The notes under the pieces: generated by a model
What the model was told of the DNA's origin: nothing
The model's input: the letters and a program-made list of their open reading frames with translations, nothing else
The model's database searches: none
From: Dehalococcoidia bacterium
Lineage (GTDB): Bacteria > Chloroflexota > Dehalococcoidia > SHYB01
Reading direction: 5' to 3'
Length of the DNA stretch: 64,000 nt
Assembly (NCBI GenBank): GCA_965220155.1
Contig: OZ244810.1
Coordinates: 3,445,298 to 3,509,297 of the forward strand
In this document: positions 4,350 to 48,205 of the stretch, in pieces
Position numbering within the stretch: position 1 is the stretch's first letter
Layout of the letters: each line of letters opens with the position of its first letter
Position numbers and translations under genes: made by a program

Positions 4350-5483
4350 ATGAGCGAACCCCTGACGTCCGAGGTTGTCGAAGTTGATAGCGTATCCGCG
4401 GCGATGGACCTCGCGTGGGAGGAGGGGTGGACGGACGGTCTGCCTATCGTCCCGCCGACGGCAGACCGGGTCGCCCGCTTTCTGGAGGCCGGGGGCAGGG
4501 CGCCAGGCGACATTATCGGCGCGTACAAGGTCCGGAACCGAGAGATCAACGCGGAAAAGGTCGCCATCAACGCGGTCATGGCGGGCTGCAAGCCGGAGTT
4601 CATGCCCATCGTGAACGCGGCGATCGAGGCCGTCACTGACGAAGAGTTCCACATGAACCACATTGCCAGCACGTCCAGCCCTTGGCCGGCGTTTGTGGTC
4701 AACGGGCCCATCGCGGAGGAGGTCGGCCTCAACGCTGGGCTCTACGTGCTTGGCCCCGGCAGACGCGCCAACGCGACCATCGGACGGGCGGTCAGCCTCA
4801 CCCTGGCGAACTGCATGGACGCGAAGGTTGGGGGTGTCCAGCAAGGGGCAATGGGAAGCCCGTTTCGCCTAGGCGGGATGGTGATCGCCGAGAAAGAAGA
4901 TGATGTCTGGGAGCCGTTGTCGGTCATGCGGGGCTTCAAAAGGGGTGAGAGCGTCGTGACGGCTTTCAGCACCATGGAGGGCCCGCAGGACGTCCGCATT
5001 TACGGAATGCCCCATGTCGACACTGCCGAAGGGCTCACCTCGGTCCTCGCCGAGTATATGTCGGAGGGCTTCTTCTCCCCCGGTCCTCACCTTGTTCTTT
5101 TCTCTCCCTCCTGGCACCGGCTCTATCTGGAGGATGGCTGGTCCAAGCAGGACGTCATCCAGTACCTCGAAGACCATACGAGGAGCAGCGTTGCCCGGTT
5201 GCGAAGAAAGGGACGCCTGGGGCTCTACAAGGCCCACGAGGACAACCTGCATGAAGAGGAGTCCTCCGATATCGATCGGCTCATGGAGCCCGCCGAAAAC
5301 GGCGTGCCAATCATCGAGCCCCACGAGGAGGAGGAGTTCATGTACCACGCAAGGTCGGAACACCGCAGAACAGAGTATTCCGTGGCCGTGGCAGGTGGAG
5401 AGGTCGGGGCCTTCGCCATGATCTTCAAGCCGTACCCGACGGGACCGAACACCGTGAGCAAGGCCGTTCGCAAAGCGGGTTAG
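4350..5483 (+). CDS. Conserved uncharacterized protein, partner of UGSC selenoprotein (paralog 1 of 3)
   Basis: Start at ATG 4350 (AAGAGGA RBS), in frame inside longer GTG-start ORF. Shares motifs EGWTDGLP..PPT, AVMAGC(K/R)PEYMP, NH(I/L)ASTSSPWP, TIGRA(I/V)SLTLANCMDA with ORFs 45171 and 46350. Confidence 0.75.
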   Translation: MSEPLTSEVVEVDSVSAAMDLAWEEGWTDGLPIVPPTADRVARFLEAGGRAPGDIIGAYKVRNREINAEKVAINAVMAGCKPEFMPIVNAAIEAVTDEEFHMNHIASTSSPWPAFVVNGPIAEEVGLNAGLYVLGPGRRANATIGRAVSLTLANCMDAKVGGVQQGAMGSPFRLGGMVIAEKEDDVWEPLSVMRGFKRGESVVTAFSTMEGPQDVRIYGMPHVDTAEGLTSVLAEYMSEGFFSPGPHLVLFSPSWHRLYLEDGWSKQDVIQYLEDHTRSSVARLRRKGRLGLYKAHEDNLHEEESSDIDRLMEPAENGVPIIEPHEEEEFMYHARSEHRRTEYSVAVAGGEVGAFAMIFKPYPTGPNTVSKAVRKAG

Positions 5484-5513: not shown

Positions 5514-6080
5514 ATGGCCGATACAGGACGGCTGACACTGCTGGACCCTACGCTCCCCTACCCGAGCACCAAGGGTAAGCTAGCACCGCGCCTCGATACC
5601 CTGAACGGAAAGGTCGTGGGGTTCCTCGGGAACTCGTTCCCGGGCGCGGACAGAATGCTGGACAGAGTCCAGGAGATCGTCTCCTCAAAGTACGAACTGG
5701 AGGGGATGGTGGTCCGGCACAAGAGCTACCTGGGCGAACCGGCAACCAAAGAGATGTTCGATGAGATGGTCTCCTCCTGCGATGCCGTCTTCACTGCGAT
5801 AGGCGCTTGAGGCTCATGCTGCTCGGCCCTTGGGGTCGACGCGTTCGCTTTCGAGGAGAAGGGCATCCCGGTAGCAGCCCTGGCCATCGATACCCTGGTC
5901 GACAACGTCGGCAAGATGATCGGCCGGCTCCATGGATTTCCGGAATATCCGTACGTGATCATCCCCGCGCCGTTCATCGAGGGGGTGATGATCCCTGAAG
6001 ACATGTGGGAGCAGAAGATCCAGGACGCGGTGACGAAATCTGAGGAGCTTCTGACCGGTACATCGATCTCCGCCGGCTAG
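5514..6080 (+). CDS. UGSC-motif selenoprotein; in-frame TGA at 5808-5810 read as selenocysteine
   Basis: ORF 5505/5514..5810 ends ...FTAIGA-TGA and the same frame continues GSCCSALGVD... to TAG 6078-6080. Homologous over the whole length, including across the TGA, to the 47536 gene; hairpin 13 nt downstream of TGA. Confidence 0.75.
5823..5839 (+). other. Putative SECIS-like stem-loop downstream of the UGA of the UGSC gene
   Basis: ucggccc/gggucga stem (one G-U), 3-nt loop, starting 13 nt after UGA. Positionally and sequence-conserved with the hairpin at 47826. Confidence 0.55.
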
Positions 6081-6236
6081 GGCGTGTTCACACTAGCTGT
6101 GAGGCAAAGGCTTGCCAAAGTCGTGGCGGGGCTAAGGTGTCTGGCGGGCAGCGTCTTAGATTCCTCGGCTGCGCCTCGGAATGACACGGGGGGAGCGCTT
6201 TTCGTGTAGCGCGAGCATCGTGTAAACAGGCCCTAG
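6077..6236. mobile_element. MITE-like repeat, copy A (TIR gggcgtgttcacac / gtgtaaacaggccc, TA flanks)
   Basis: About 90% identical to copies at 13495 and 58943. Imperfect 14-bp terminal inverted repeats flanked by TA on both sides (within CTAG). Confidence 0.6.
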
Positions 6237-31925: not shown

Positions 31926-31996
31926 AGGGGTTGGGGAGCCTATGTTCGAGTTTGATGGTTACGCCGAAGCGGTAAGCCGCTCCTGGTGGGATAGAC

Positions 31997-34069
31997 TCAC
32001 TGCGCGAGATCGGTCAGAAATTCCGACGCGGGCTTGACACCGGTTACGAGGAGATGGTCCCGAGCGCGTGTGCAGGCGACGTAGAGGAGATTCCTTTCCG
32101 TGTTGTAGACCTCCTCCAGGTCTTCCACCTCGGCGATGGACTCGATGCGCGACTGGCTGGGAATGACTTCGTCATCACACGCTATGACGGCGACGGCGCG
32201 GAACTCCAGTCCTTTCGCAAGATGCATCGTGCTCACAGAGACGCCGCCATCCGTGGGGTCTAAACTCTCAGAGAGCAAACGGTGCGGGAGGCCCGCGGCT
32301 TCGATACCGGAGAGTGCGCGTTGAATTTCACCGTCAGACCGAACGAAGACCGCGGTCTCGTCCGCTTTCATCCCTCTGCCGACCAAGTCCTTTAGCCAGT
32401 CCGCCAAGCAACCTGCTTCGCCCTCGACCGTCTCCAGCACCTTTATAACGGGACGGGGACCACTGAATACGGAAACTGTCGAACGACGCTCTTCAGTGTT
32501 GCCGTCGACGTCGGCCAACTCGGGACCCAGGAGGCGGTCCGCCTGATCCCGAATCTGGTGTGACGTCCGATAGTTGATGCGCAGCGTGTGAGAGCGTCCC
32601 CGGATGTCCACCCCCAGGGTCTTCCACGAGAATGGCTGTTGGAAGATGCGCTGACCGAGGTCGCCAGCGAAGAAGAGGCTGTTGCTGCTCCCTGATCCCA
32701 GCACCGCGAGGAACCGTAGCTGGGCTACACTCACGTCTTGGGCTTCGTCAACTACCACGAAGTCGAAGGGGCGACGTTCGCTCCCCTGGAACAGTGAAGC
32801 TAGCTTGTCGTACATCTCGGGATGCGTCATGAGTCCCTTGCTTCTCAGCCCGCTCCGGATGCGTTCGAAAACCGACCAGAGCTCCCGGCGATGACCCTCC
32901 GGCAGCCGTCGTCTGCGTCCAAGGCGCAACACGTCCCGGTAGGCTTCCCAGCTCTCCAACTGCCAATCGTCCACGACCTGTTCCCATTCCGCACTCAAGA
33001 ACTGCCGGGAGAACCTGTCAGAGCCAACTTCAGCGGCGGCTTCCTTAATGAGTTGGGCTATCACTGCCGGGGGCGCCACGGCGGCGGCGCCAAGGTTCCG
33101 CCGGTACAACTGTTGGCCAATGGCGGATATGGAACGCACCTCAACCCTCTCCCCGAGCCGAGGCTCGCCGCTTATCAGGACTCGCAGCTTTGCTCGCAGG
33201 GCGTTCGCCAGGGTGTCCGAAAACGTCGTCAGCAGCACCCTGCCGTGGTCGTTGGCCCGCGCCAGATGCACTGCCCGATGTAGGGCAACCACGGTCTTGC
33301 CGGTACCAGCCGAACCCGAGACTCTGGCCGGGCCACCGAAGTCGCGCTCCACAATATCTCGCTGCGCCGGATGCAAGAATACAGACCACCTCTCCCACGG
33401 GTAGTCGAGGGCCCGAGCGAGCTCTTCGTGGCCGGACACGACCAAAAAGCGGCGTTGGGCATCCGGGTGATCGAAGGGGCCGGTTCCAGCGGGAACCGGC
33501 TGGGGCAGGGGGACCTCTCCACCGGTTGCCAACTGAAGAAGCGCTTCTGCCGCTTCCCCTGGCAGGTGACCGGCCACGTCGAGAATCGTGTCCTCGTTGG
33601 CGTGGCGGACATCGTCCAACCAATCTTGCGGGATGCCATAGCTCAGGAGGCGGCCATCGGACACGCCCGCCAGCAGGGCCGGTTTGGGAGGAGCTTCAAG
33701 CTCCCTGGTGACGTATGTCGGAACCGCGACCTCCTGGACCGTCTCCCGCACCTCGACCAACTGGGCGGCGCCCGTATTCGGATGGGTCTCGAGCCTACGG
33801 CGTTCGGCCCATCTGTAGGCGCGGTCGTGGTGATCGACATAACACAGCAGGACACTGCTCTGCGACCGGTGGACGATGACCCGCAGGTCCTGGCTGACGC
33901 GGACGGACCAGAAGTTGGGGTCCCTGGCTGTGCTCAGCCGGTGGAGCTGATGCCCGGGCTGGGCTGGATTCACCTGGAAATCGAAGGCTACGGTCTTGAC
34001 GGCCCTCTGTTCGTCTCTAGTCAGCCTGGCAAGGCTGTCGATGAAGGTGTCGGCGATGCGGAACTGCAC
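31997..34069 (-). CDS. UvrD/REP-like SF1 helicase with N-terminal RelE/ParE-like domain
   Basis: Walker A GSAGTGKT, Walker B VVVDEAQD, motif VI TMHLAKGLEF. N-terminal ~100 aa show RelE/ParE-like pattern (WSVRVSQDLRVIVHR..VLLCYVDHHDRAY). Confidence 0.7.
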   Translation of the reverse strand: MQFRIADTFIDSLARLTRDEQRAVKTVAFDFQVNPAQPGHQLHRLSTARDPNFWSVRVSQDLRVIVHRSQSSVLLCYVDHHDRAYRWAERRRLETHPNTGAAQLVEVRETVQEVAVPTYVTRELEAPPKPALLAGVSDGRLLSYGIPQDWLDDVRHANEDTILDVAGHLPGEAAEALLQLATGGEVPLPQPVPAGTGPFDHPDAQRRFLVVSGHEELARALDYPWERWSVFLHPAQRDIVERDFGGPARVSGSAGTGKTVVALHRAVHLARANDHGRVLLTTFSDTLANALRAKLRVLISGEPRLGERVEVRSISAIGQQLYRRNLGAAAVAPPAVIAQLIKEAAAEVGSDRFSRQFLSAEWEQVVDDWQLESWEAYRDVLRLGRRRRLPEGHRRELWSVFERIRSGLRSKGLMTHPEMYDKLASLFQGSERRPFDFVVVDEAQDVSVAQLRFLAVLGSGSSNSLFFAGDLGQRIFQQPFSWKTLGVDIRGRSHTLRINYRTSHQIRDQADRLLGPELADVDGNTEERRSTVSVFSGPRPVIKVLETVEGEAGCLADWLKDLVGRGMKADETAVFVRSDGEIQRALSGIEAAGLPHRLLSESLDPTDGGVSVSTMHLAKGLEFRAVAVIACDDEVIPSQSRIESIAEVEDLEEVYNTERNLLYVACTRARDHLLVTGVKPASEFLTDLAQ

Positions 34070-34098
34070 ATACTACTCCTGCTTTAGTTCCAGCGCCC

Positions 34099-35019
34099 TT
34101 AGGACACCACTTGCCAATCTTGACGGGAGGACTCGACCTGGACCAGTCTTTCTTGCACACTGTCCAATCTCTGATGTAGTGATTTCGCGTTGCGTCGATC
34201 AAAGTACTTCGCCAGATATTCCCGAGCCGCTTCTATCACGAACATGCCTACCGGACTGAGAAGCTCACCATCAGTTGAGAGGTGATCGGATTTGGGTTCA
34301 AACCCTTCGTCCTTGGGCAGCAGATGGTTTTTGATCAGATCGACCCAGTCCCCGTGGATCGCGTGGGAAGGGATCCTTTCCAAGACGGTATATGCAGGCC
34401 AGTCGAACCCGATGGCGGTGAGTTTATCTCGGAAACTACCTCCCCAGCTTCCTGTTTTCGGGTTAACCTCTGCGAGTATCACCCGTGACTGTTCGCACGT
34501 GTCGTTTATTGAATTGAGCATACTCTCTTCGATAGCCAGTTTTTCTCCACCTCTGGCCCTTATATTTCCCTGAATAATGTCGTGAAGTTCGCACTCAGCG
34601 ACGAGGCTATTCTTTACGAATCTGTCGTAGATTGCATCATCGTCTTTGAGCAACAAATATCGAAGGTTTACTGCGGATTCAATGATACATCTGTTTAATG
34701 CTTGAACTGTTTCTCCGTGCTCAATATCAGCAGATAACTTAACGACCGATAGCATGAATTTGGATATGCGGACCAGCAATCCCGCACAGATACCCTGGTT
34801 ACGGTCGAACTTGAGTGCATCTCCAGTTGTGCCCATATAAGCGGCGCTACTGACGCAAGTCAATCCGACAGCTTCTTTATATAATTCGTACACCAGCGCT
34901 CCGAATTGGCCATTTGTTCGGCACGCCTCAAGCACTTCATCGGTTACCTCTACCGGAGGTCCCACGAGGTTTTCTATGTCGTCAATAGGTTCCACTACTA
35001 CAACGCCCCTGTTATTCAA
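34099..35019 (-). CDS. Hypothetical protein, markedly lower GC than neighbours (island orphan gene)
   Basis: 306-aa ORF tightly packed between mod and helicase genes (gaps 48 and 29 nt). No recognisable family; weak Rx6H (RIPSHAIH). Confidence 0.55.
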   Translation of the reverse strand: MNNRGVVVVEPIDDIENLVGPPVEVTDEVLEACRTNGQFGALVYELYKEAVGLTCVSSAAYMGTTGDALKFDRNQGICAGLLVRISKFMLSVVKLSADIEHGETVQALNRCIIESAVNLRYLLLKDDDAIYDRFVKNSLVAECELHDIIQGNIRARGGEKLAIEESMLNSINDTCEQSRVILAEVNPKTGSWGGSFRDKLTAIGFDWPAYTVLERIPSHAIHGDWVDLIKNHLLPKDEGFEPKSDHLSTDGELLSPVGMFVIEAAREYLAKYFDRRNAKSLHQRLDSVQERLVQVESSRQDWQVVS

Positions 35020-35067
35020 GTCGCAAGGGTAACGTAACCTTTGACAAACGCTGACCGAACATTTCCT

Positions 35068-37890
35068 TTACTCTACCCGGAAGACCTTCATCACCTCGTC
35101 GCCCAGGTGGTTGATGATCTTGACGGCGATGCGGCCGGTCGACGGCTTGCCAAAGGGGCGGGAGATGCCGCTGTGCAGGGTGGCCCAGGCGTCCGCATTG
35201 ATCTCGGCCTTCAGGGTGGTCTTGAGCGCCTTGTACGGGTCGCTGGCGCCTAGGAAGTAGGCGTGGCGGACGAAGAAGGCCTCCTGGTTGTAGTCGGTGT
35301 CGATGAACCAGCAGGCGATGCCGTCCGGCCCATCGCTGCGCACCTCCCCGGTGTTGGGGTGGAAGACGTCCACACCGTTGACCTTCACTTGAACCTGCCC
35401 GTCGTCGGCGTCGAGGATGTCGATATCCGGCTCTCCGAAAATGACGAACAGGTTGCCCTTACCCGTGTTCTTCAGATCGTCGGCCATGTGCAGGTCCGCG
35501 TTCATGCGGGCCTTGAGCACCGGAATGCGGCCCAGCTTCTCGAACTCCGTCGAATGGGCGTCGTAGTTGAAGGCGCAGGCGATGAGCACGTCGAATCTCG
35601 CGTCGGCGGCCTCCCGCGCCGCTTCCACCAGGTCGGGGCGGGAGACGGTGCCGAACTCCGGACCGACGAAGATGGCGGAGCGCCGCTCGGTGCCGGATCC
35701 CTCGTCTTCCGGTGTCCCTCCCTCCACGTAGCGGCCCTCGGCGCACACCAAGCGGCCCGGCCACGGCGCGAGGGAGGTGAACTCGATACGGTCCTCCCGG
35801 TGCGCCTGCTGCACGCCGGAGACCTTCAGGTTGTCGAGGATGACCTGGGCGAAGTCATACTCCCGCCCATACGCGGCGCCCGGCTCGGCGATGCGGTCGA
35901 AGGTGTCGCCGTGCTCGTCCACCTCCAGCGTCCGGTGGGGCGAGATGCTCTCGACGGTGAAGGGGCCTGCGACGCGGACCTTGCCCCGGTCCTCGTAGGG
36001 CTTGTCGTACAGGTACTCGTAGTCGGCCTTGGCGGCGATGGATGCGTCTATCTCTTTCCGCCGGGCGATGCGGGCCTGCCACCAGCTAGCGTGCGAGTCC
36101 TTTGCGCTCTTGGGCCAGGACTCATCAGCATCTCGGGGAATCTCCCACTCCTCCCATGACGTGCCCATGGCGCTGTTCAGTTTCTCCCGCAGGGGCTCGA
36201 GCTCCTCCTGGGCCGTCTCCCAGATGACGTCTATCTCGGCGTTGTTGGCGATGGCCCGCAGGGTGACGTGGGGCACCCGCTCGTAGACGAACCCCTGGCG
36301 GATGTCCCCGTAGGTGGGAGATTCCGAAGGGGCCTTGCGGGTGACCTCCGCCTCCTTGAGCTGCCCATTGCGGCTGTCGGCCAGCAGGTAGTAGGGGTAG
36401 CGGGCGCCCATGATGCGGGCGCGGGCTAGGGCCAGGGCGACGCGGGAGGTGTCGATGGTGATCCACCGCCGCCCCCACTGCTCAGCGACAAATGCCGTGG
36501 TTCCTCCTCCACAGGTGGGGTCCAGCACCAAGTCACCAGGGTCAGTTACCATGTTCATACACCGAGAGATGACCTTTGGATTAGTCTGGACAACGAAAGT
36601 CCGAGCCTCTGAGAAGCCGCTGACGGAGGTGTCTCGCCAAACATCTTGAATTGGTATAGCTAGAAAGTCGGCGAAGAACCTTTTGTAACGAAGGCTATTT
36701 CCTATTACAAACAACCGACCAGCTCTTCCCAGTCGCCTCATGCCCTCAGGCAGTGTCCGCCACCTCTGGCCGCTCGGTAGTCTGAACATTCGTTCTTGAA
36801 ACTCGAAGTTGAAAAGTGTGGTGCTCGCTGCACCAGCGGTGTATACACTCTGATGGCTGAACAGTCTGCCGTCGTAATTGTGGCCGAGCGCAGCAGCAGC
36901 GACCTCGTTGGATGTCAAAGTTCGGACATCTCCCGGGGTCGATTCAATCCACGTGTACTGGCTCGTTCCCTCTCCTCCGACCTCTTTCAACGCATAAGGC
37001 TTACGGAACTTCGCCTTCGAACGGTCTCTGGCAAACCAAAGGATGTAGTCGTTGACATTTGGCAGAAACTGCGCCTCAAGTCCCGCCGTCTTCATAAACG
37101 GGATCATATTCACGTAGTTGTCTCGCCCAAAGACCTCATCCATAAGCGCCCGGACGCGGTGGACGTTCTCCTCGCCGATCTGCACGAAGACGGAACCAGA
37201 GTCGGTGAGCAGGTCGCGGGCGACAGCAAGGCGGTCGCGCAGGTAGGTCAGGTGGGAGTGGATGCCGTCGCGCCAGGTGTCGCGGAAGGCCCTGACCTGC
37301 TCCGGCTCCCGGGTGATGTGCTCGCGGTTGCCGTCCCGCACGTCCCGGCTGGTGGTGGACCACTGGAAGTTGGAGTTGAACCGGATGCCGTAGGGCGGAT
37401 CGATGTAGATGCACTGGACCCTGCCCCGCAACCCCTCCCGCTCGGCCATCGACGCCATGACCTGGAGGCTGTCGCCCAGGACCATGCGGTTGGACCAGTT
37501 GGCGTCGTGCTGGTAGAACTCGGTCCTGGCGTCCTCGGAGGGCAGGCCGTTGAAGTCGGCGAACATGTCTGTCTGGTAGTCGCCGGAGCCATTGCCGTTC
37601 CTTGACCGGCGCACGAGGTCGTCGATGAGCGCCTTGGGATGCACCCGCTCCTGGATGTACAGAGGCGGCGCGTTGACCACCAGGTCGGACCAGTCCTGCT
37701 CGTCCTTGCCGCGCCAGACGAGCTGCGGGTCCAGGTCGCGGTTGCGCCGCTCGTAGGCGAGCCTGACCGGGCTCTGCTCCTCCTCGCGCATGAGAGGCTG
37801 GTGCTCCGCGCTGGGCAGGTTCCGGCGGGTGGACTCCTTGTGCTTAGTGGCCTCGACGGACTTGCGTTGATTGCCTCGCGCTCTGGGCAT
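35068..37890 (-). CDS. mod: N6-adenine DNA methyltransferase, beta-class (Type III Mod-like) with about 450-aa C-terminal extension
   Basis: Motif IV IYIDPPYG precedes motif I DPTCGGGTTAF (beta order), NYVNMIPF region; 940 aa. Confidence 0.8.
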   Translation of the reverse strand: MPRARGNQRKSVEATKHKESTRRNLPSAEHQPLMREEEQSPVRLAYERRNRDLDPQLVWRGKDEQDWSDLVVNAPPLYIQERVHPKALIDDLVRRSRNGNGSGDYQTDMFADFNGLPSEDARTEFYQHDANWSNRMVLGDSLQVMASMAEREGLRGRVQCIYIDPPYGIRFNSNFQWSTTSRDVRDGNREHITREPEQVRAFRDTWRDGIHSHLTYLRDRLAVARDLLTDSGSVFVQIGEENVHRVRALMDEVFGRDNYVNMIPFMKTAGLEAQFLPNVNDYILWFARDRSKAKFRKPYALKEVGGEGTSQYTWIESTPGDVRTLTSNEVAAAALGHNYDGRLFSHQSVYTAGAASTTLFNFEFQERMFRLPSGQRWRTLPEGMRRLGRAGRLFVIGNSLRYKRFFADFLAIPIQDVWRDTSVSGFSEARTFVVQTNPKVISRCMNMVTDPGDLVLDPTCGGGTTAFVAEQWGRRWITIDTSRVALALARARIMGARYPYYLLADSRNGQLKEAEVTRKAPSESPTYGDIRQGFVYERVPHVTLRAIANNAEIDVIWETAQEELEPLREKLNSAMGTSWEEWEIPRDADESWPKSAKDSHASWWQARIARRKEIDASIAAKADYEYLYDKPYEDRGKVRVAGPFTVESISPHRTLEVDEHGDTFDRIAEPGAAYGREYDFAQVILDNLKVSGVQQAHREDRIEFTSLAPWPGRLVCAEGRYVEGGTPEDEGSGTERRSAIFVGPEFGTVSRPDLVEAAREAADARFDVLIACAFNYDAHSTEFEKLGRIPVLKARMNADLHMADDLKNTGKGNLFVIFGEPDIDILDADDGQVQVKVNGVDVFHPNTGEVRSDGPDGIACWFIDTDYNQEAFFVRHAYFLGASDPYKALKTTLKAEINADAWATLHSGISRPFGKPSTGRIAVKIINHLGDEVMKVFRVE

Positions 37891-37929
37891 GAGCGTCGTT
37901 TTCCTCTCTACTGAACTATCCCGTGAAGA

Positions 37930-38349
37930 TCATTGGGCGCTGAAGGGGTCGAGCACTCGGACGCCCAACCCCTCAACGTCGGAAACGTTTCGAGTTATTA
38001 GGGTGACATCATGTACCATCGCGGTGGCGGCAAGCAGGCCGTCAACCACGGGAACCGGACGAATGGCGGATATCTGTCCCCACGTATCCGCAATCATTTC
38101 GTCGATGGGCAGGATGCGACCGGCAAAACTCAGAGCAGTTGCTCTGAGCCAGCTTTCCAGAACGTTGGTCCGCTGCGGATCACGCCTCCGTCGTATCTGT
38201 TCTATGCCTCTGCGCATCTCTCCAAGCGCCAATACGCTAAGAAATATGTCAGTTTCCTCCACCCCCGCGTACCAAGTTCTAACGTTGATGTCACAGCGGT
38301 CGCCTTTGCGGAGCTCCGAGATGACGTTGGTATCAAGCAGATATGTCAA
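37930..38349 (-). CDS. vapC: PIN-domain ribonuclease, VapC-like toxin (no cognate antitoxin gene)
   Basis: LLDTNVISE N-terminal acidic motif, conserved D/E/D, C-terminal ITRN. TTG start overlaps res stop (TTGA). Confidence 0.7.
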   Translation of the reverse strand: MTYLLDTNVISELRKGDRCDINVRTWYAGVEETDIFLSVLALGEMRRGIEQIRRRRDPQRTNVLESWLRATALSFAGRILPIDEMIADTWGQISAIRPVPVVDGLLAATAMVHDVTLITRNVSDVEGLGVRVLDPFSAQ

Positions 38350-41300
38350 AACTCAATGTCTCTCGGGAACTCGCGGGGTCGGACCAAGTACTCCTCGTCA
38401 ATGGGACAGGATGCGAGCAGCTCCTTGGCGCTCATGGCGCTATAGTCAGGGATTCCTGATTCCCTCACGATCCTCTGTATCAGGTTGTCGAACCCCGTCT
38501 CGATTTTATACACGTCCACAAACTCAGCGAAGGCCCAACGTCCGTATCGACCGAGGCCGTTGACGCCGGGAATCCAATAGGTCTCCATGGCGTCCTTCTT
38601 GGCCTTTGCGTCTTCGCCGCGGTATCCCTTGATCTCCACGACCAGATTCAATGGGTCTTCGCTGCCATCGTCTATCTGGACGATGAAGTCCGGTATGTAC
38701 GTGCGGGTTAGGGAGCCGTACTGGTAGGGCACTTCCAGACCCAGGTTGTGGTTCTTGGCGTATGCTCTCACCCTGGGGTGCGCTTCCGCCACGCGGCAGA
38801 GCTCGGCCTCCCAGTCGCTGTCCAAGATAACCCAATTGAGGTGACATTTGCGGGGGTCCGTCTCCCAGCGGCTCTCTTTGGACGTGCTGAAACTCACGTG
38901 AGCGGTCGAGCCGGTGGGATTGAAGGGATCGAGCATTGCCTTGACAGGTCGTTGGCCGGCGTGAGCGCGGATAATGGCGGCCGCGATGCGCTCGCAGGCC
39001 ATGTCGGCCAGCTCTTGATACATGAGCTGCGCCGGGTAGGCGCCGCCCTTGCAACGCAGGCTGCCGTCGAGCCATTGGCTGACTATCCCTTTCAGCTTGC
39101 CAAAGAGGTGAAGCTTTGGCTCCTCGTTCTGGTCGCGCCATTTCGTGTAGAGGAGCCGCTGGGTGAGGTGCATCAGTAGGGTTGAGCGCCGGAGGTCTCT
39201 CGTGTGCACCAAGTTGAGATCGACGCCTTCACCGATAATGCCTTGGTTCCTCGTGACGGTTGGCCCAGTGAGACCGGGCGTCAGCTCCAAGACAGAGTCT
39301 TCAGTGAACGCGGCGGTCAACTCCTCCTTGGCAAGCTCGACGCGATAACCTCGAACGCGCGGGAAGCTGATTTCCAAGGAGTCGCGGTCGGGGCGAACGG
39401 CTCTGACCTGTATGGTCCGGCGGGGCGGCTGAGGCGGCGCAACGACGGGCTTGGCCGTGAAGTCGAAGGGGATGCCAAGGACCTCGGCGTACTCGACGTT
39501 GAATAGGTCTTGATCGTTCAGGTCGTAGGACTGGCGGCGCAGCGCCCGGCCGATGACCTGCTCACACAGCAGTTGGGTCCCGAAGGCTCGGACACCGAGG
39601 ATATGGGTGACCGTGTTGGCGTCCCAGCCCTCGGTCAGCATCGAGACGGATACGACGCAGCGGATGGAGTCTCCGAGGCTATTCTCTTTGCCGACGGTGT
39701 TCATGACCTCCCTGAGAAGGTCTTGGTCGGGGATGTTGCCGGCCTGGACCTGATCGCCGCTGCGTTGTTGTCTCTCCCGGCGGAACCGCTCGATTTCAGG
39801 AGCGGCGATAGTCCGGAAGTTCTGGTCCAACGCGTCGCCGGACTCGAGCTGTTCGCTGTCTATCAGCAACGTCCGAGGACGGGGCAGATGGTTGCCGTAT
39901 TCGTCGAAGTTGCGGAACAGCTCCAGCCGACCGTTTTCGAGGGAGCTCGAGCCGTCTTCGTTCTCGCGATGAAAGCCCGAGATGTAGTCGTAGACCAGCT
40001 TGGAGGTGGCCGTGTTGTTACAGACGACGATGAAGCACGGTGGGACCGGCACGTCGGCCTGGCGCCACAGATCGAAGGTCTTCTCGTAGTGCCCGTAGAG
40101 CGCCTGCAACGCCGTCTGAAGCTTGGTGGGGATCTCGAGGGGATCGAGATTCTTGGATTTACCGCGGCCCTTCCGCGGCATTTCAGGACGAATATTCTCC
40201 CATAGGGCGCGGAAGGTGGGCATGTCCCCGCCTGGGATGTTGTCGGATACAGGCACGCGCGGCAGCTTGACGATGCCGCACTCGATGGCGTCCATCAGGG
40301 AGAAGTCGTTCACCGTCCAGGGGAAGAGCGTACCCTCGGCATAACCCGAACCGCGCAGGAAGAAAGGCGTTGCGGACAGGTCGATGACCTGCTGGATGCC
40401 CAACTTGCGCTTGACGATTTCGAGTCCTGAAATCCAAACACGGGCCTCTTCGGTGTTCTTTTCGGCCTCTCTCCTGTCTTCACCTTTCAGCGTTTCCTCG
40501 TCATCCTCACCCGGCTTGCGACGGTAGCAGTGATGCCCTTCGTCGTTGAGCACCAGGACGTTCTTGATGCCCATGAGCTCCGGCATCACCCGCTGGACCA
40601 TCTGGCCCTCGGTCTCGATGGTGTTCAGCTCGGGGCCTCTGCCCTGGAGGAGGGCGCGGCCGCCACCGGAGACAGCCAGGACCTCTCGCAACTTGAAAGC
40701 ATGAAAGTTGGTAATGACGATCCTGGCCTTGCCGAGATCGTCGAGCATGTCCGCTGGAACCAGCTCACGACTTGCGTAGTAGCTGTCCGGGTCGTTAGGT
40801 TGCAGGACGCGCAGACGGTCCTTGATGGTGATGCCAGGGGCGACGACGAGAAAGCCGCGGGTGAACTTGCTACTGTTTGGACGCCGGACCGCGTTGATGG
40901 TGTGCCAGGCGATGAGCATCGCCATGACGGTGGTCTTTCCGGTGCCCGTCGCCAGCTTGAGAGCCAAGCGCATGATCTCAGGGTTAGCTTCCGTATTCGC
41001 CGCCTGGAGATTGTCCAAGAACCGCCGCCCTGTCGGCCTCAACTTCGGGGCGACCTCAGTAAGCCAGATGACCGTTTCCGCCGCCTCAATCTGGCAGAAG
41101 AAGGGACGCAGGCTGCTGAAGCTGTGGTGCCGCCAGTGTTGCAGCAGCCGAGCGGTCTCGGGCGTGACGCCCCAGTCGTTCGAACTCGGAATGGCCCGCC
41201 AGGCGTCCACCTGCTGGCGGATGCCGTTAACAACGGCTGTAGTGGCCTCGTATTGCTGGTGCTCAGTCGATAGCCCTTTGCCTTCGTCAAACACGAAGCC

Positions 41301-41474
41301 CCGCTGAAGCGCCCTGCGCTTGCGCGGCTTTGGGATTGGCGTGATGAATTCCGCCTTGCGTCGATAGTCGACTATCTGTTGCGTCGGCTGGCCCTGGGCA
41401 TCCAATTCCCAGTGCCTCTTTGGATACTCATAAGGGGAGTTCAGTATGGGACTGTCGAAGAATCGCTCTTCCAT
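38346..41474 (-). CDS. res: Type III restriction endonuclease Res-like subunit (SF2 helicase plus C-terminal PD-(D/E)xK nuclease)
   Basis: Walker A TGTGKT, DEGHH (DEAH-like) motif II, C-terminal PDF..VVEIKGY (D..ExK) motif; N-terminus typical of T3 Res. Confidence 0.8.
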   Translation of the reverse strand: MEERFFDSPILNSPYEYPKRHWELDAQGQPTQQIVDYRRKAEFITPIPKPRKRRALQRGFVFDEGKGLSTEHQQYEATTAVVNGIRQQVDAWRAIPSSNDWGVTPETARLLQHWRHHSFSSLRPFFCQIEAAETVIWLTEVAPKLRPTGRRFLDNLQAANTEANPEIMRLALKLATGTGKTTVMAMLIAWHTINAVRRPNSSKFTRGFLVVAPGITIKDRLRVLQPNDPDSYYASRELVPADMLDDLGKARIVITNFHAFKLREVLAVSGGGRALLQGRGPELNTIETEGQMVQRVMPELMGIKNVLVLNDEGHHCYRRKPGEDDEETLKGEDRREAEKNTEEARVWISGLEIVKRKLGIQQVIDLSATPFFLRGSGYAEGTLFPWTVNDFSLMDAIECGIVKLPRVPVSDNIPGGDMPTFRALWENIRPEMPRKGRGKSKNLDPLEIPTKLQTALQALYGHYEKTFDLWRQADVPVPPCFIVVCNNTATSKLVYDYISGFHRENEDGSSSLENGRLELFRNFDEYGNHLPRPRTLLIDSEQLESGDALDQNFRTIAAPEIERFRRERQQRSGDQVQAGNIPDQDLLREVMNTVGKENSLGDSIRCVVSVSMLTEGWDANTVTHILGVRAFGTQLLCEQVIGRALRRQSYDLNDQDLFNVEYAEVLGIPFDFTAKPVVAPPQPPRRTIQVRAVRPDRDSLEISFPRVRGYRVELAKEELTAAFTEDSVLELTPGLTGPTVTRNQGIIGEGVDLNLVHTRDLRRSTLLMHLTQRLLYTKWRDQNEEPKLHLFGKLKGIVSQWLDGSLRCKGGAYPAQLMYQELADMACERIAAAIIRAHAGQRPVKAMLDPFNPTGSTAHVSFSTSKESRWETDPRKCHLNWVILDSDWEAELCRVAEAHPRVRAYAKNHNLGLEVPYQYGSLTRTYIPDFIVQIDDGSEDPLNLVVEIKGYRGEDAKAKKDAMETYWIPGVNGLGRYGRWAFAEFVDVYKIETGFDNLIQRIVRESGIPDYSAMSAKELLASCPIDEEYLVRPREFPRDIEF

Positions 41475-41594
41475 TTCAACCGACCTCGCGAGCGCTATTC
41501 GTCATTCTCACCCGAAACCAACGACCCGCTTTCTCCAATGCATCAATATCGGGCTTCGGGACCCAAGCCGCCTTTTGAAGAGGGGTTGGGGAGC

Positions 41595-45170: not shown

Positions 45171-46307
45171 ATGACACTCGATACACGAGACGTAACGGCG
45201 GACAGCGAAGTCGCCGCCATGGAGTACGCCTGGGCCGAAGGCTGGACCGACGGCCTGCCCATCATCCCGCCCACGCCCGAGCGTGTAACGGCCTTCCTCG
45301 AGTATGCCGGACTGGACCCGGACCAGGAAATCGGGCAGTATGCCGTCCGGAACCGCGGAATCACCGCCGCCAAGATAGCCTCCAACGCTGTCATGGCCGG
45401 GTGCAGGCCCGAATACATGCCCGTGGTGGTGGCCGCCATCGAGGCGATCACCGAGCCCGATTTCAAGATGAACCACCTGGCCAGTACCTCCAGCCCCTGG
45501 CCTGTCTTCATCGTGAACGGGCCGATCATCAAGGAGCTGGGCCTCAACAGCGGGGCGTACGTGCTGGGGCCCGGGAGCAGACCAAACGCGACCATTGGCA
45601 GGGCCATCAGCCTGACCCTGGCCAACTGCATGGATGCGAAGGTCGGCGGCGTGCAGCAAGGGATCATGGGCATCCCCGCCCGTGCGGCAGGACAGGTCAT
45701 CGCTGAAAATGAGGATATCTCCTGGGAGCCCCTGAGCATGATGCGGGGATTCCCCCGCGGGGTCAGCACCCTGACGGCCGCGACCCACTATATGGCGGGG
45801 CCCCGGCAGGTGATCGCTCTGCCTGAGCACCTGCCTAAGGAGAACGCGGCATTGGCCCTGGCCAACATGCTGAGCGAGTACTGCGGAGAGGGCTCCCTCA
45901 CTTCGGTACAGACCGTGCTTCTATCCCCGTCGTTCCAACGGGCCTTTGCCTCCGAGGGATGGAGCCGGAAGGATGTCAGGGACTACCTCGTCGAGAACGT
46001 GAAAGCCTCGGTCGCATCCCTGAAGCTCCGCCACCGCTGGCTGGCCGAGACCTGGGAAGAGCCCCTGGTCCATAGCTCGGCCCCAATCTACCCTGGCGAC
46101 GAGAGCAAGTTCGTCTACCACGGGAAGGGCGAAGATTTCGGCAGGAAGATCGGCGGCCACGCGGCGACGCACCCGCGCAAGGACATGGACTACATCATCG
46201 CGGTCGCGGGCTCCGACATTGGGCAGATGTACGCGTGTTTCTTCCGGCCCTACATTCCCGATGGGGCCAATACGAAAGTCATTCGCCCACCAGCGAGCAA
46301 GGGCTGA
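45171..46307 (+). CDS. Conserved uncharacterized protein, partner of UGSC selenoprotein (paralog 2)
   Basis: Shares all family motifs with 4350 and 46350 ORFs. Confidence 0.75.
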   Translation: MTLDTRDVTADSEVAAMEYAWAEGWTDGLPIIPPTPERVTAFLEYAGLDPDQEIGQYAVRNRGITAAKIASNAVMAGCRPEYMPVVVAAIEAITEPDFKMNHLASTSSPWPVFIVNGPIIKELGLNSGAYVLGPGSRPNATIGRAISLTLANCMDAKVGGVQQGIMGIPARAAGQVIAENEDISWEPLSMMRGFPRGVSTLTAATHYMAGPRQVIALPEHLPKENAALALANMLSEYCGEGSLTSVQTVLLSPSFQRAFASEGWSRKDVRDYLVENVKASVASLKLRHRWLAETWEEPLVHSSAPIYPGDESKFVYHGKGEDFGRKIGGHAATHPRKDMDYIIAVAGSDIGQMYACFFRPYIPDGANTKVIRPPASKG

Positions 46308-46349
46308 CGGGCCGCCGGGGACTTGGGGTCCAGGCGGGAGACAAGGACG

Positions 46350-47477
46350 ATGACCCTTCAATCGAACATGGTCGAAGCGGCCAGCGAGATCGACGCGATC
46401 GAGCGCTTCATGGCCATGGAATGGTCCGACGGGCTGCCAGTCGTCCCGCCGACTCCCGAGCGGGTCACCCAGCTTCTGGACTACATGGGGATGGAGCCCG
46501 GGCTCGAGATCGGCCGATCAGAGGTCCGCAACAGGAGCATCACCGCCGAGCACGTCGCCACCAGCGCGGTGGCGGCCGGGTGCAGGCCGGAGTACATGCC
46601 CGTCATCGTCTCGGCCCTGGAAGGGGTCATGGACCCCGACTTCCACATGAACCACCTGGCAAGCACGTCGAGCCCATGGCCTATGTTCATCGTCAACGGG
46701 CCGATCATCGAGGAAATCGGGCTCAACGACAGCACCTATGTTTTGGGGGTTGGCAGCAGGGCGAATATGACCATCGGCCGGGCGATCAGCCTAACCCTGG
46801 CCAACTGCATGGACGCCAGGACAGGCGGCGTCCAGCTTGGCGTGATGGGGAACGGCGCCCGCGCCGCCGGCCTCGTGATGGGAGAGCGGGAGGACTCGAC
46901 GTGGGAGCCCGTGAGCGTCACCAGGGGATTCTCCCCTGGGACCAGCACCGTCACCGTCATCAGCACCTTCGAGGGCACTCCCCGCCAGATATACTTTGGT
47001 CCCGAGCAGATGCCGGCAACCAACCGCGCGGAGGCCACGGCGCACTGGATATCCTACTTCTTCGGAGAGGGCTTTTGCGGAGGGGGCACGCACCTGGTGC
47101 TCCTCCCCCCAGTTGCCCGGCAGGTCTTTCTCGACTCCGGGTGGAAGAAGGAGGACCTGCGGCGCTACCTCGTGGAGAACGTGAGGGCATCGGTGGCGTC
47201 GCTGAAGCGTCGGTTTCTGTGGCCGCCGGGACCGGGGGAGGAGCCCACGACGGAAGGCTCAGCCCCAATTCATCCAGGGGACGAGGACAGGTATATTTAT
47301 CTAGGGCAAGAACCGCTGCCTGGAGGGGACACCTTCGGGAGGGCGCGGCGCAAGGCGGACTTCATTATCGCAACCTCGGGGTCCGAGATAGGGCACTTCC
47401 ATCTGATCATCACCAGCTCCTTTCCATCCGGGCCCAACCCCGTGACGAAGGTCATCCGCCAGTCAGCGAAGAAGTAG
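46350..47477 (+). CDS. Conserved uncharacterized protein, partner of UGSC selenoprotein (paralog 3)
   Basis: Start at ATG 46350 (MTLQSNM...), family motifs conserved. Confidence 0.75.
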   Translation: MTLQSNMVEAASEIDAIERFMAMEWSDGLPVVPPTPERVTQLLDYMGMEPGLEIGRSEVRNRSITAEHVATSAVAAGCRPEYMPVIVSALEGVMDPDFHMNHLASTSSPWPMFIVNGPIIEEIGLNDSTYVLGVGSRANMTIGRAISLTLANCMDARTGGVQLGVMGNGARAAGLVMGEREDSTWEPVSVTRGFSPGTSTVTVISTFEGTPRQIYFGPEQMPATNRAEATAHWISYFFGEGFCGGGTHLVLLPPVARQVFLDSGWKKEDLRRYLVENVRASVASLKRRFLWPPGPGEEPTTEGSAPIHPGDEDRYIYLGQEPLPGGDTFGRARRKADFIIATSGSEIGHFHLIITSSFPSGPNPVTKVIRQSAKK

Positions 47478-47535
47478 AACCGCGAGGTCTTTACTAGAGG
47501 TCTTTAGTCAGAGGACTTTACTTAAAGGAGGCACC

Positions 47536-48078
47536 ATGAAGCTCGTCGACCCGACGATCGGCGTCAGCGCGGCCACCGGGCTGCTCGCAACCAGGGTGGA
47601 GACGCTGGACGACAAAGTCGTTGGCTTCATTTGCAACGGCTACCCCGGAGCGGAGCGCTTCCTGAGACGGGTCGATGAGATCGTCTCGGAAAAGTACAAG
47701 CTTCGGGGCAAGGTGTGGCACATCAAGGACTACATCGGCGAGCCCGCCAAGCCGCACATCCAGGAGGACGTCATCGCCAACTGCGACGTCATCATCACCG
47801 GCCTGGGCGCTTGAGGGTCATGCTGTTCGGCCGTTGCGGCCGAAGCGATTACCCTGGAAGGACACGGCAAGCCGGTAGCAGCTTTCGCGGTGGACACCTT
47901 CGCCAGGACGGTCGGGAAGGCGATGGCCCGACTCCACAGCTTCCCAAACTATCCCCTGGTGGAGATCCCGGCGCCCTTCTTCGAAAGCACGGCGCCTTCC
48001 GACTCCGATTTCGAGACAAAATCGCTGGCCGCAGTCGCCAAGGCGGAGGAGCTCCTCTTTGGCGGGAAACTGGAGTAG
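47536..48078 (+). CDS. UGSC-motif selenoprotein; in-frame TGA at 47812-47814 read as selenocysteine
   Basis: ORF ends ...ITGLGA-TGA then same frame continues GSCCSAVAAE... to TAG 48076-48078. Homologous to the 5514 gene across the TGA. RBS AAAGGAGG. Confidence 0.75.
47826..47844 (+). other. Putative SECIS-like stem-loop downstream of UGA
   Basis: Perfect 7-bp stem uucggcc/ggccgaa with 5-nt loop guugc, starting 12 nt after UGA. Confidence 0.6.
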
Positions 48079-48087
48079 CCCCCCATT

Positions 48088-48149
48088 CGGTTAGGGCCAA
48101 CAAAGGAGTCAGGCCTAACCGAAACGCCAGGTAGCCTGGCGTTTCGGTT
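48088..48149 (+). terminator. Two consecutive strong hairpins after UGSC gene (terminator-like, no U-tract)
   Basis: cggttagggcc/ggcctaaccg with 13-nt loop, then perfect 15-bp stem aaccgaaacgccagg/cctggcgtttcggtt with 3-nt loop. Confidence 0.5.
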
Positions 48150-48205
48150 ACCGTTGCGGCACACCCCGGTTGTGCTCTCGAACGAGCGTCTCTGATACGC
48201 GGGCC

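What the first reader, a model, noticed from the sequence alone, without database searches (positions are those of the whole stretch)
47536..48078. Second recoded UGSC selenoprotein with perfect SECIS-like hairpin
Same architecture as the 5514 locus: in-frame TGA at 47812-47814 followed by GSCCSAVAAEAITLEGHGKPVAAF... to TAG 48078. A perfect 7-bp stem with 5-nt loop (uucggcc guugc ggccgaa, 47826-47844) starts 12 nt after UGA. Two independent copies of the same recoding event in one window argue strongly against sequencing error or pseudogene.
Basis: partly seen in the sequence, partly recalled or inferred. Interest (0 to 1): 0.8.

Follow-up and report, generated by a model that had tools for sequence, protein, structure and literature searches.

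The report
UGSC-family selenoprotein gene with SECIS hairpin

Summary
ORF 47536-48078 (+) has one in-frame TGA (47812-47814), followed by GSCCSA. A perfect hairpin lies at 47826-47844.

With U read as C, the product matches Pfam PF24696 "UGSC family" (110 bits, cutoff 25). It also matches NCBIfam NF041046 "UGSC family (seleno)protein" at 78.8 bits, below the 125 cutoff.

Evidence that the TGA encodes selenocysteine:
- All six species genomes found, three closer relatives of this copy and six sister-strain assemblies keep TGA.
- About 140 of the 150 best family clusters end exactly at this position; the long ones have Cys there.
- In 15 distinct Sec-form genes, the 7-bp stem 12 nt after UGA is 96% paired, with compensatory changes in 6 of 7 pairs. 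Fifty-five Cys-form genes lack it.
- The region after the TGA is under purifying selection.
- TGA is an ordinary stop in 9 of 31 other genes checked.

The family has been known since the 2000s, so this is a divergent, mis-annotated new member, not a new kind. Public gene calls split it into 92-aa and 51-aa ORFs.

The more interesting by-product is a roughly 375-aa gene family with no Pfam/NCBIfam match or solved structural relative, adjacent or fused to UGSC genes. No selenocysteine machinery was found among the window ORFs scanned with Pfam; the rest of the genome could not be checked.

The parts
47525..47531 (+). Shine-Dalgarno-like AAGGAGG, 4 nt upstream of the ATG
   Evidence: Read directly from the sequence.
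47536..47811 (+). N-terminal 92 codons of the UGSC selenoprotein gene. Public gene callers annotate this stretch as a separate 92-aa ORF.
   Evidence: Translation; Pfam PF24696; N-terminal profile finds 611 family clusters.
47812..47814 (+). In-frame UGA read as selenocysteine: the U of the U-G-S-C motif
   Evidence: TGA is kept in six species genomes, three closer relatives and six sister-strain assemblies. Cys codons occupy the same column in Cys-form homologs.
47826..47844 (+). SECIS hairpin: 8-bp stem (47826-47833 / 47837-47844) with UUG loop. The family-conserved 7-bp core is 47827-47833 / 47837-47843.
   Evidence: Folding. Covariation in 15 Sec-form genes: 96.2% of cells paired, 6 of 7 pairs with compensatory changes, 0 of 500 shuffles reach the observed values, slid controls 24-41%. 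The hairpin is absent from 55 Cys-form genes.
47815..48078 (+). C-terminal 87 codons plus the TAG stop of the same gene
   Evidence: Third-position G+C is 0.76 versus 0.78 upstream. Synonymous-only polymorphism. dN/dS is 0.33 (copy 2 vs copy 1) and 0.17 (copy 1 vs L016). The Pfam match runs across the TGA (residues 3-152).
48117..48149 (+). Perfect 15-bp hairpin 39 nt after the stop codon; probably the transcript end of the operon. It has no U-tract, so this role is tentative.
   Evidence: Fold of 48079-48170: -39.3 kcal/mol, z = -3.12.
45171..46307 (+). Partner gene A (378 aa): uncharacterised family that accompanies UGSC genes
   Evidence: No Pfam or NCBIfam hit. More than 6000 homologs, all unnamed or 'hypothetical'. 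Adjacent to UGSC in 60 of 86 other loci held at that point. AF2 model pLDDT 87.6 with no solved relative.
46350..47477 (+). Partner gene B (375 aa; an alternative TTG start lies at 46323). It is a paralog of A (53% identity) and ends 58 nt upstream of the UGSC start.
5514..6081 (+). First UGSC copy (TGA at 5808-5810; hairpin core 5823-5839), used here as the internal comparison
4350..5483 (+). Partner gene C (377 aa), directly upstream of the first UGSC copy

Best explanation
Positions 47536-48078 are one gene for a 180-residue selenoprotein of the UGSC family.

Recoding (comparative evidence shown; biochemistry inferred). The UGA at 47812 is decoded as selenocysteine by the standard bacterial route. 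The hairpin at 47826-47844 lies inside the coding sequence, 11-12 nt after the UGA. It acts as the SECIS element that recruits SelB-GTP-Sec-tRNA(Sec) to the ribosome, so the stop codon is read through at this one site. Elsewhere in the genome TGA remains a stop.

Protein chemistry (inferred). The protein is a small alpha/beta domain, flavodoxin-like in the AF2 model of a Cys-form homolog. The U-x-x-C pair sits at the junction of a beta-strand and the N-terminus of a helix, a geometry typical of redox-active selenol/thiol pairs. It most likely cycles between selenol/thiol and selenenylsulfide.

Partner (association shown; function inferred). It is co-transcribed with, and probably works on or with, the roughly 375-aa partner protein encoded immediately upstream. 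That partner is fused to UGSC in some organisms.
For: Family membership:
- Pfam PF24696, 110 bits against a cutoff of 25; the match spans the TGA.
- NCBIfam NF041046, E = 4e-22.

Sec/Cys pairing:
- About 140 of the 150 best 50%-identity clusters end exactly at the U column.
- The long clusters have C-G-S-C there.
- Seventy-one metagenomic Cys forms align at the same column.

TGA conservation:
- Kept in 6 of 6 species genomes.
- Kept in 8 metagenomic loci plus one variant.
- Kept in 3 closer relatives of this copy.
- Kept in 6 sister-strain assemblies.

SECIS:
- In 15 distinct Sec-form genes the stem is 96.2% paired.
- Six of 7 pairs show compensatory changes.
- 0 of 500 shuffles reach the observed pairing or covariation score.
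- Slid controls give 24-41% pairing.
- U24 in the loop is invariant.
- None of 55 Cys forms has the full stem, and they fold more weakly (Mann-Whitney p = 1.3e-4).

Translation past the TGA:
- Third-position G+C is 0.76 downstream versus 0.78 upstream.
- dN/dS of the C-terminal half is 0.17-0.33.
- Strain polymorphisms are all synonymous.

No global reassignment of TGA:
- Nine of 31 well-supported (mostly Pfam-matched) genes in the window stop at TGA.

Single domain:
- AF2 model of Cys homolog P0278 has pLDDT 91.4.
- The C/U lies between strand 85-91 and helix 94-109.

Partner link:
- Adjacent in 60 of 86 loci.
- Fused in L006, L054 and L057.

Literature:
- UGSC-containing protein is a major selenoprotein family: 255 Sec forms versus 21 Cys forms in the Global Ocean Sampling (GOS) metagenomes (PMC2398784).
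Against: - No selA, selB, selC or selD was found among the window ORFs scanned with Pfam or listed in the sister-strain gene tables. Not every ORF was scanned, and the rest of the genome could not be searched, so Sec competence of the host is inferred, not shown.
- No Rfam SECIS model matches, although no general bacterial SECIS model appears to exist there.
- The NCBIfam score (78.8) is below the curated cutoff (125), so this is a divergent subfamily.
- One short, single-sample scaffold (L096) carries TGG instead of TGA, together with three other non-synonymous changes within 55 nt.
- The redox mechanism and the partner interaction are inference. No UGSC protein has been characterised biochemically according to the reviews read.
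Confidence: 0.9

Rival explanations
1. Pseudogene or genuine termination: the TGA is a nonsense codon, only the 92-residue N-terminal fragment is made, and the downstream frame is a decaying remnant.
For: Public gene callers annotate it this way, as 92-aa and 51-aa ORFs. One scaffold (L096) shows several clustered non-synonymous changes around the site.
Against: - TGA at this exact column recurs in hundreds of divergent clusters.
- The downstream half is under purifying selection, with dN/dS 0.17-0.33.
- The downstream half has coding-like third-position G+C.
- Strain polymorphisms are only synonymous.
- The TGA falls in the middle of a single folded domain.
- The hairpin covaries.
Confidence: 0.03
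2. Selenium-independent readthrough or codon reassignment: the UGA is read by a near-cognate or suppressor tRNA (Trp, Cys or Gly). The hairpin acts as a general readthrough stimulator rather than as a SelB-binding SECIS.
For: The Sec machinery was not seen in the window. L096 encodes Trp (TGG) at the site.
Against: - TGA terminates 9 of 31 well-supported genes here, so any recoding is site-specific.
- The homologous residue in non-TGA relatives is Cys within a CxxC-type motif, which is the classic Sec/Cys signature.
- The hairpin's size (17-nt core), its spacing from UGA and its G/U-containing loop fit bacterial SECIS geometry (SECIS rules recalled from my own knowledge of E. coli fdhF and bSECISearch work).
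- The family is curated as a selenoprotein family.
Confidence: 0.05
3. Two separate small genes: a 92-aa protein, and a 51-62-aa protein started from an internal GTG or ATG, which associate after translation.
For: A GTG-started 62-aa ORF exists at 47890-48078, and a 51-aa ORF is called in public assemblies.
Against: - The conserved G-S-C-C-S motif and helix immediately after the TGA (47815-47889) would be left untranslated.
- That stretch nevertheless encodes the family's most conserved residues.
- Cys-form homologs and the fused forms are single uninterrupted chains.
Confidence: 0.02

Closest known systems
UGSC-containing / UGSC family (seleno)protein (Pfam PF24696; NCBIfam NF041046; Zhang and Gladyshev, GOS selenoproteome, PMC2398784)
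   Same: - The U-G-S-C motif is at the same position.
- Length is about 180 aa.
- Sec forms greatly outnumber Cys forms.
- A SECIS hairpin lies just after the UGA.
- A fusion to an unknown domain occurs in some members; the paper reports a 'UGSC/Unknown_1' fusion, and I see UGSC fused to the 375-aa partner in L006, L054 and L057.
   Different: - This copy and its window paralog score below the NCBIfam equivalog cutoff (78.8 and 77.6 versus 125).
- They carry GA-U-GSCCSA and PAP where most members have GD-U-GSC and PHP.
- The literature suggested a thioredoxin-like fold, whereas the AF2 model of a Cys homolog is flavodoxin-like.
- I could not verify that 'Unknown_1' is the same as the partner family, because the figure is an image.
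Bacterial SECIS element of the E. coli fdhF type (SelB-binding hairpin within the ORF)
   Same: - It is a hairpin inside the coding sequence immediately 3' of the UGA.
- It has a 17-nt core stem-loop starting 11-12 nt after the UGA.
- G and U are in the apical loop.
- It is present only when the codon is UGA.
   Different: - The stem sequence is unrelated to fdhF and no bulged U is evident.
- The loop is a UUG or GUG triloop (or pentaloop).
- No Rfam model matches.
- SelB binding is untested.
Selenoprotein subunits of multi-subunit reductases (GrdA, GrdB, PrdB of glycine and D-proline reductase)
   Same: It is a small Sec-containing protein with a U/C-x-x-C-type motif, encoded next to a larger partner subunit. 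This is an analogy for how the pair may work.
   Different: There is no sequence similarity: Pfam PF07355 (which I recall to be the GRDB family) did not appear even at E <= 1. The partner has no similarity to GrdE or PrdA (no Pfam hit at all). This is a functional analogy only, not membership.

Membership tests
UGSC family (seleno)protein (Pfam PF24696 / NCBIfam NF041046) | Significant match to the Pfam family model over most of its length | tested here: met
   PF24696: 110.4 bits (gathering cutoff 25), residues 3-152 matched to model positions 2-151 of 172.
UGSC family (seleno)protein (Pfam PF24696 / NCBIfam NF041046) | Score above the NCBIfam equivalog cutoff | tested here: not met
   NF041046: 78.8 bits (copy 2) and 77.6 bits (copy 1) against a cutoff of 125; E = 4e-22 and 9e-22. 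The gene is homologous but belongs to a divergent subfamily.
UGSC family (seleno)protein (Pfam PF24696 / NCBIfam NF041046) | U(or C)-G-S-C motif at the conserved position, with Cys-containing homologs aligned to the UGA | tested here: met
   TGA-GGG-TCA-TGC encodes U-G-S-C. C-G-S-C is found in P0012, P0029, P0078, P0142, P0277-P0280 and in 71 metagenomic loci.
Bacterial SECIS element | Stable hairpin within the ORF a short, fixed distance 3' of the UGA | tested here: met
   The stem starts 11 nt (this copy) or 12 nt (family core) after the UGA, with the loop 19 nt after it. The distance rules come from my knowledge of E. coli fdhF and bSECISearch work; I did not re-read them here.
Bacterial SECIS element | Structure conserved by compensatory changes in Sec-encoding homologs and dispensable in Cys-encoding homologs | tested here: met
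   Sec forms: 96.2% of cells paired, 6 of 7 pairs with changes on both sides, 0 of 500 shuffles, slid controls 24-41%. Cys forms: 0 of 55 have 7 of 7 pairs, with a mean of about 4 of 7, and they fold more weakly (p = 1.3e-4).
Bacterial SECIS element | G/U in the apical loop | tested here: met
   Loop column 24 is an invariant U, and G occurs at column 23 or 25 in all 15 sequences.
Bacterial SECIS element | Binds SelB and directs Sec insertion; the host carries selA, selB, selC and selD | not testable with these tools
   The window has no tRNA gene, and no sel gene was found among the ORFs scanned or in the sister-strain gene tables.
Thioredoxin-fold oxidoreductase (fold suggested for UGSC proteins in PMC2398784) | Thioredoxin-like fold with the CxxC/UxxC motif at the N-terminus of helix 1 | tested here: not met
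   The AF2 model of Cys homolog P0278 (pLDDT 91.4) has b-a-b-a-b-[C/U]-a-b-a order. The best PDB matches are flavodoxin-like domains (TM 0.4-0.5) and none is a thioredoxin. The motif does sit at a helix N-terminus. This rests on a model of a homolog with about 30% identity to the window protein.

The most novel reading that the evidence does not exclude
The UGSC selenoprotein and the roughly 375-aa protein encoded beside it (three paralogs in this window; fused to UGSC in other lineages) form an obligate two-component selenoenzyme. Its large subunit would have a fold with no solved relative and a chemistry not yet described. Its duplication among catabolic genes (luciferase-like monooxygenases, amidohydrolases, aldo/keto reductase) in this Chloroflexota-like genome would point to a selenium-dependent step in organic-matter degradation.
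Probability: 0.3. Interest if true: 0.6.

Novelty: new member of a known kind. Interest (0 to 1): 0.25.

Why it matters
Practical value. Both UGSC genes are split into fragments in every public assembly seen (92/98 aa plus 51/54 aa). They also fall below the NCBIfam cutoff, so automated pipelines will keep missing this subfamily. The 15-sequence SECIS alignment gives a usable signature: a 7-bp stem plus a G/U-containing triloop, starting 12 nt after the UGA.

Biological value. The recoding is textbook. The open question is function. [quoted passage not shown] The gene pairing and fusion with a large uncharacterised family (more than 6000 homologs, no domain model, no structural relative) gives a concrete handle for finding what these proteins do.

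Tried and rejected
Searches that gave nothing or little:
- The word-indexed homolog search with the full-length U-to-C protein returned nothing. The exhaustive profile search and an alignment query were needed instead.
- Rfam gave no hit at gathering thresholds. At permissive thresholds around the site it gave only chance hits, such as Cardiovirus CRE at 18.8 bits.
- The PDB sequence search with the UGSC profile gave only coiled-coil noise, and the partner gave none.

I therefore used the N-terminal fragments, and for structure prediction a Cys-form homolog.
- The metagenome scan with the 11-sequence alignment failed for lack of a conserved stretch. The 4-sequence alignment worked, but one of its patterns (GDCGSC...) biased the hits towards Cys forms. 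The 71:9 ratio therefore says nothing about natural frequencies.

Ideas tested and dropped:
- I looked for conserved neighbours other than the partner (luciferase-like monooxygenase, aldo/keto reductase, TIM-barrel, hydrolase and others). None recurs in unrelated loci.
- I considered global TGA reassignment and rejected it.
- I considered that 'Unknown_1' of the GOS paper is the partner family. This could not be verified.

Full report
**Observation**

- An ATG at 47536 is preceded by AAGGAGG at 47525-47531.
- It opens a frame that meets TGA at 47812-47814, continues as GSCCSAVAAEAITLEGHGKPVAAF..., and ends at TAG 48076-48078.
- The hairpin uucggcc/guugc/ggccgaa occupies 47826-47844. ViennaRNA also pairs the outer loop bases, giving 8 bp and a UUG triloop.
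- On its own the local fold is only moderately better than shuffles (z = -2.56; 3 of 200 shuffles do as well). The hairpin alone would not carry the claim.
- The other copy (5514-6081, TGA at 5808) is 49% identical at protein level. It has a hairpin in exactly the same register, UCGGCCC-UUG-GGGUCGA, against UCGGCCG-UUG-CGGCCGA here. The encoded residues differ (SALGVD versus SAVAAE).

**What the protein is**

- With U replaced by C, the 180-residue product matches Pfam PF24696 "UGSC family" at 110 bits (cutoff 25). The match runs straight across the TGA.
- It matches NCBIfam NF041046 "UGSC family (seleno)protein" at E = 4e-22, but at 78.8 bits it is below the curated 125-bit cutoff. Copy 1 behaves the same way.
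- The UGSC-containing protein is a long-described selenoprotein family. It was one of the most abundant in the Global Ocean Sampling (GOS) metagenomes, with 255 Sec forms against 21 Cys forms (PMC2398784). It is listed in recent reviews (PMC9312934; PMC13188914).

**Is the TGA really decoded?** Five independent lines say yes.

1. *Conservation of the codon.*
   - All six species-level genomes found keep TGA at this column. They are Dehalococcoidia or Chloroflexota MAGs and one Betaproteobacteria MAG.
   - Eight metagenomic loci do too, plus one variant with a U-D-G-C motif.
   - So do three closer relatives of this very copy, L097, L098 and L099.
2. *Sec/Cys pairing.*
   - An exhaustive HMMER search with the N-terminal halves found 611 clusters.
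   - About 140 of the best 150 end exactly at the U column, as expected for Sec genes truncated by gene callers.
   - The few long ones carry C-G-S-C.
   - Seventy-one metagenomic Cys forms align at the same column.
3. *Population data.*
   - Six sister-strain assemblies from different samples, including megabase and circular long-read contigs, all keep TGA.
   - They differ from the window by 9 substitutions at 7 distinct sites, all synonymous in the readthrough frame.
   - Three of those sites lie downstream of the TGA.
4. *Selection.*
   - dN/dS of the part after the TGA is 0.17 (copy 1 versus its relative L016) and 0.33 (copy 2 versus copy 1).
   - This is no weaker than for the part before the TGA.
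   - Third-position G+C is 0.76 after the TGA and 0.78 before it.
5. *Site specificity.* Nine of 31 well-supported (mostly Pfam-matched) genes in the window use TGA as their stop, so the codon is not reassigned genome-wide.

**The hairpin as a SECIS element**

I aligned the 48 nt from the UGA in 15 distinct Sec-form genes. No gaps were needed.
- The helix formed by columns 16-22 and 26-32 is 96.2% paired.
- Six of 7 pairs have changes on both sides.
- None of 500 column shuffles reaches the observed pairing or covariation score.
- Sliding the 3' arm by 1-3 nt drops pairing to 24-41%. The 12-sequence version gave the same picture.
- Loop position 24 is an invariant U flanked by G.

The Cys-form genes serve as a control.
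- None of 55 distinct Cys-form sequences has the full stem in that register; the mode is 4-5 of 7 pairs.
- Their local folds are weaker (mean -8.0 versus -11.7 kcal/mol; Mann-Whitney p = 1.3e-4).

The element is therefore tied to the UGA, not to the amino-acid sequence. As I recall, the minimal E. coli fdhF SECIS and the bSECISearch consensus require three features:
- a 17-nt core;
- a position 11-12 nt after the UGA;
- G/U in the loop.

This hairpin has all three. I did not re-read those sources here. Rfam has nothing that matches. A few family members place their hairpin in a shifted register (L041, L054, L057).

**Mechanism**

*Shown by comparative evidence:* site-specific UGA recoding linked to a conserved downstream hairpin, in a family where the alternative residue is Cys.

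*Inferred:* SelB-GTP-Sec-tRNA(Sec) binds the hairpin and inserts selenocysteine.

*Not shown:* that this organism has the machinery.
- The window has no tRNA gene.
- No sel gene was found among the ORFs scanned with Pfam or listed in the sister-strain gene tables.
- I could not reach the rest of the genome.

*Protein chemistry:*
- An AF2 model of a Cys-form homolog (P0278; pLDDT 91.4, pTM 0.85) is a single alpha/beta domain.
- The C/U-G-S-C motif lies at the end of strand 85-91 and the start of helix 94-109.
- Its best PDB matches are flavodoxin-like domains at TM 0.4-0.5, not thioredoxins. This is at odds with the "likely Trx-like fold" remark in PMC2398784.
- A UxxC pair at a helix N-terminus suggests a selenol/thiol to selenenylsulfide redox couple. 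This is inference.

**Genomic context**

*Operon layout:*
- The gene is the last of a three-gene, same-strand cluster: partner A (45171-46307), partner B (46350-47477) and UGSC.
- A perfect 15-bp hairpin follows at 48117-48149.
- Copy 1 has one partner (4350-5483) directly upstream.

*What the partners are:*
- They are 45-53% identical paralogs.
- They have no Pfam or NCBIfam match and no PDB sequence match.
- They have more than 6000 homologs, all unnamed or "hypothetical".

*Link to UGSC:*
- A partner homolog lies next to the UGSC gene in 60 of the 86 other loci held at that point. This includes both Sec and Cys forms.
- In L006, L054 and L057 the two are fused in one frame, UGSC first.
- This may be the "UGSC/Unknown_1" fusion noted in 2008. 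The figure is an image, so I could not check.

*Partner structure:*
- A confident AF2 model of partner A (pLDDT 87.6, pTM 0.91) has no convincing solved relative.
- Foldseek's best hit is class I fumarate hydratase alpha at TM 0.27-0.34.

*Other neighbours:* the remaining window neighbours do not recur in unrelated loci.

**Rivals**

- *Pseudogene or true termination.* Contradicted by codon conservation, purifying selection and covariation.
- *Selenium-independent readthrough.* Hard to square with the Sec/Cys pattern and the SECIS-like geometry. It remains formally open because the machinery was not seen.
- *Two separate small genes.* This would leave the family's most conserved motif untranslated.
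- *One exception.* A 989-nt short-read scaffold (L096) carries TGG at the site, plus C83W, V85A and a stem-breaking change, all within 55 nt. I read it as an error cluster or a decayed allele.

**Verdict**

The thing itself is a member of a known selenoprotein family that uses the known bacterial recoding mechanism.

What is new:
- It is a divergent subfamily that falls below the NCBIfam cutoff.
- It is mis-annotated as fragments in public assemblies.
- The family's SECIS now has explicit covariation support.

The more interesting lead is the uncharacterised partner family. Interest 0.25; new member of a known kind.

Noticed in passing
window 45171-46307, 46350-47477, 4350-5483: Three paralogs of a roughly 375-aa family with no Pfam or NCBIfam model, more than 6000 unnamed homologs, and a confident AF2 model without a solved structural relative. 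A family member sits next to a UGSC gene in every locus with enough flank (both Sec and Cys forms), and is fused to UGSC in L006, L054 and L057.
   Followed up: partly
window 31943-41581: A roughly 9.6-kb strain-specific island lies between the PepX-like peptidase and the beta-lactamase-family gene. It carries a UvrD-like helicase, DUF5677, an N6/N4 DNA methylase and a ResIII helicase/nuclease. It is absent from five of six sister-strain contigs and partly present in L010, which instead carries HepT/nucleotidyltransferase genes nearby. The flanks overlap by about 16 nt. It looks like a restriction or defence island in a variable hotspot.
   Followed up: partly
L096:100-642 (ERZ23495182 scaffold_264113): A variant of this very gene carries TGG (Trp) instead of TGA, plus C83W, V85A and a hairpin-breaking C-to-G change, all within 55 nt, while the rest is near-identical. 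It is either an error cluster in a low-coverage scaffold or a decaying allele.
   Followed up: partly
window 46305-46350: The TGA stop of partner A is in the same frame as partner B, 14 codons downstream, with high third-position G+C on both sides. This is probably coincidence (a one-in-three chance). I did not check for a hairpin or for conservation.
   Followed up: no
whole window (31 well-supported, mostly Pfam-matched genes): Stop-codon usage is TAG 19, TGA 9 and TAA 3 in a 63% G+C sequence. TAG as the dominant stop is unusual.
   Followed up: no
L041:736-1170; L054:3247-3294; L057:1293-1340: Family variants. L041 has a U-D-G-C motif (GG*DGCSAS) with its own hairpin at a shifted register. 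L054 and L057 (L057 is labelled as a human-gut metagenome contig) are UGSC-partner fusions whose hairpin is also shifted.
   Followed up: partly
window 47536-48078 and 5514-6081; L007-L015: Every public assembly seen calls these genes as two fragments (92 + 51 aa and 98 + 54 aa). Both score below the NCBIfam NF041046 cutoff, so rule-based selenoprotein rescue would probably miss them.
   Followed up: yes
window 22904-24598; 14817-15983; 18382-19569: A HerA-like ATPase (DUF87 plus HAS-barrel), an ATP-sulfurylase (PUA_2 plus ATP-sulfurylase, which in principle could also activate selenate), and a class-V aminotransferase (the family I recall includes cysteine desulfurases and selenocysteine lyases) lie in the window. 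None was examined further.
   Followed up: no
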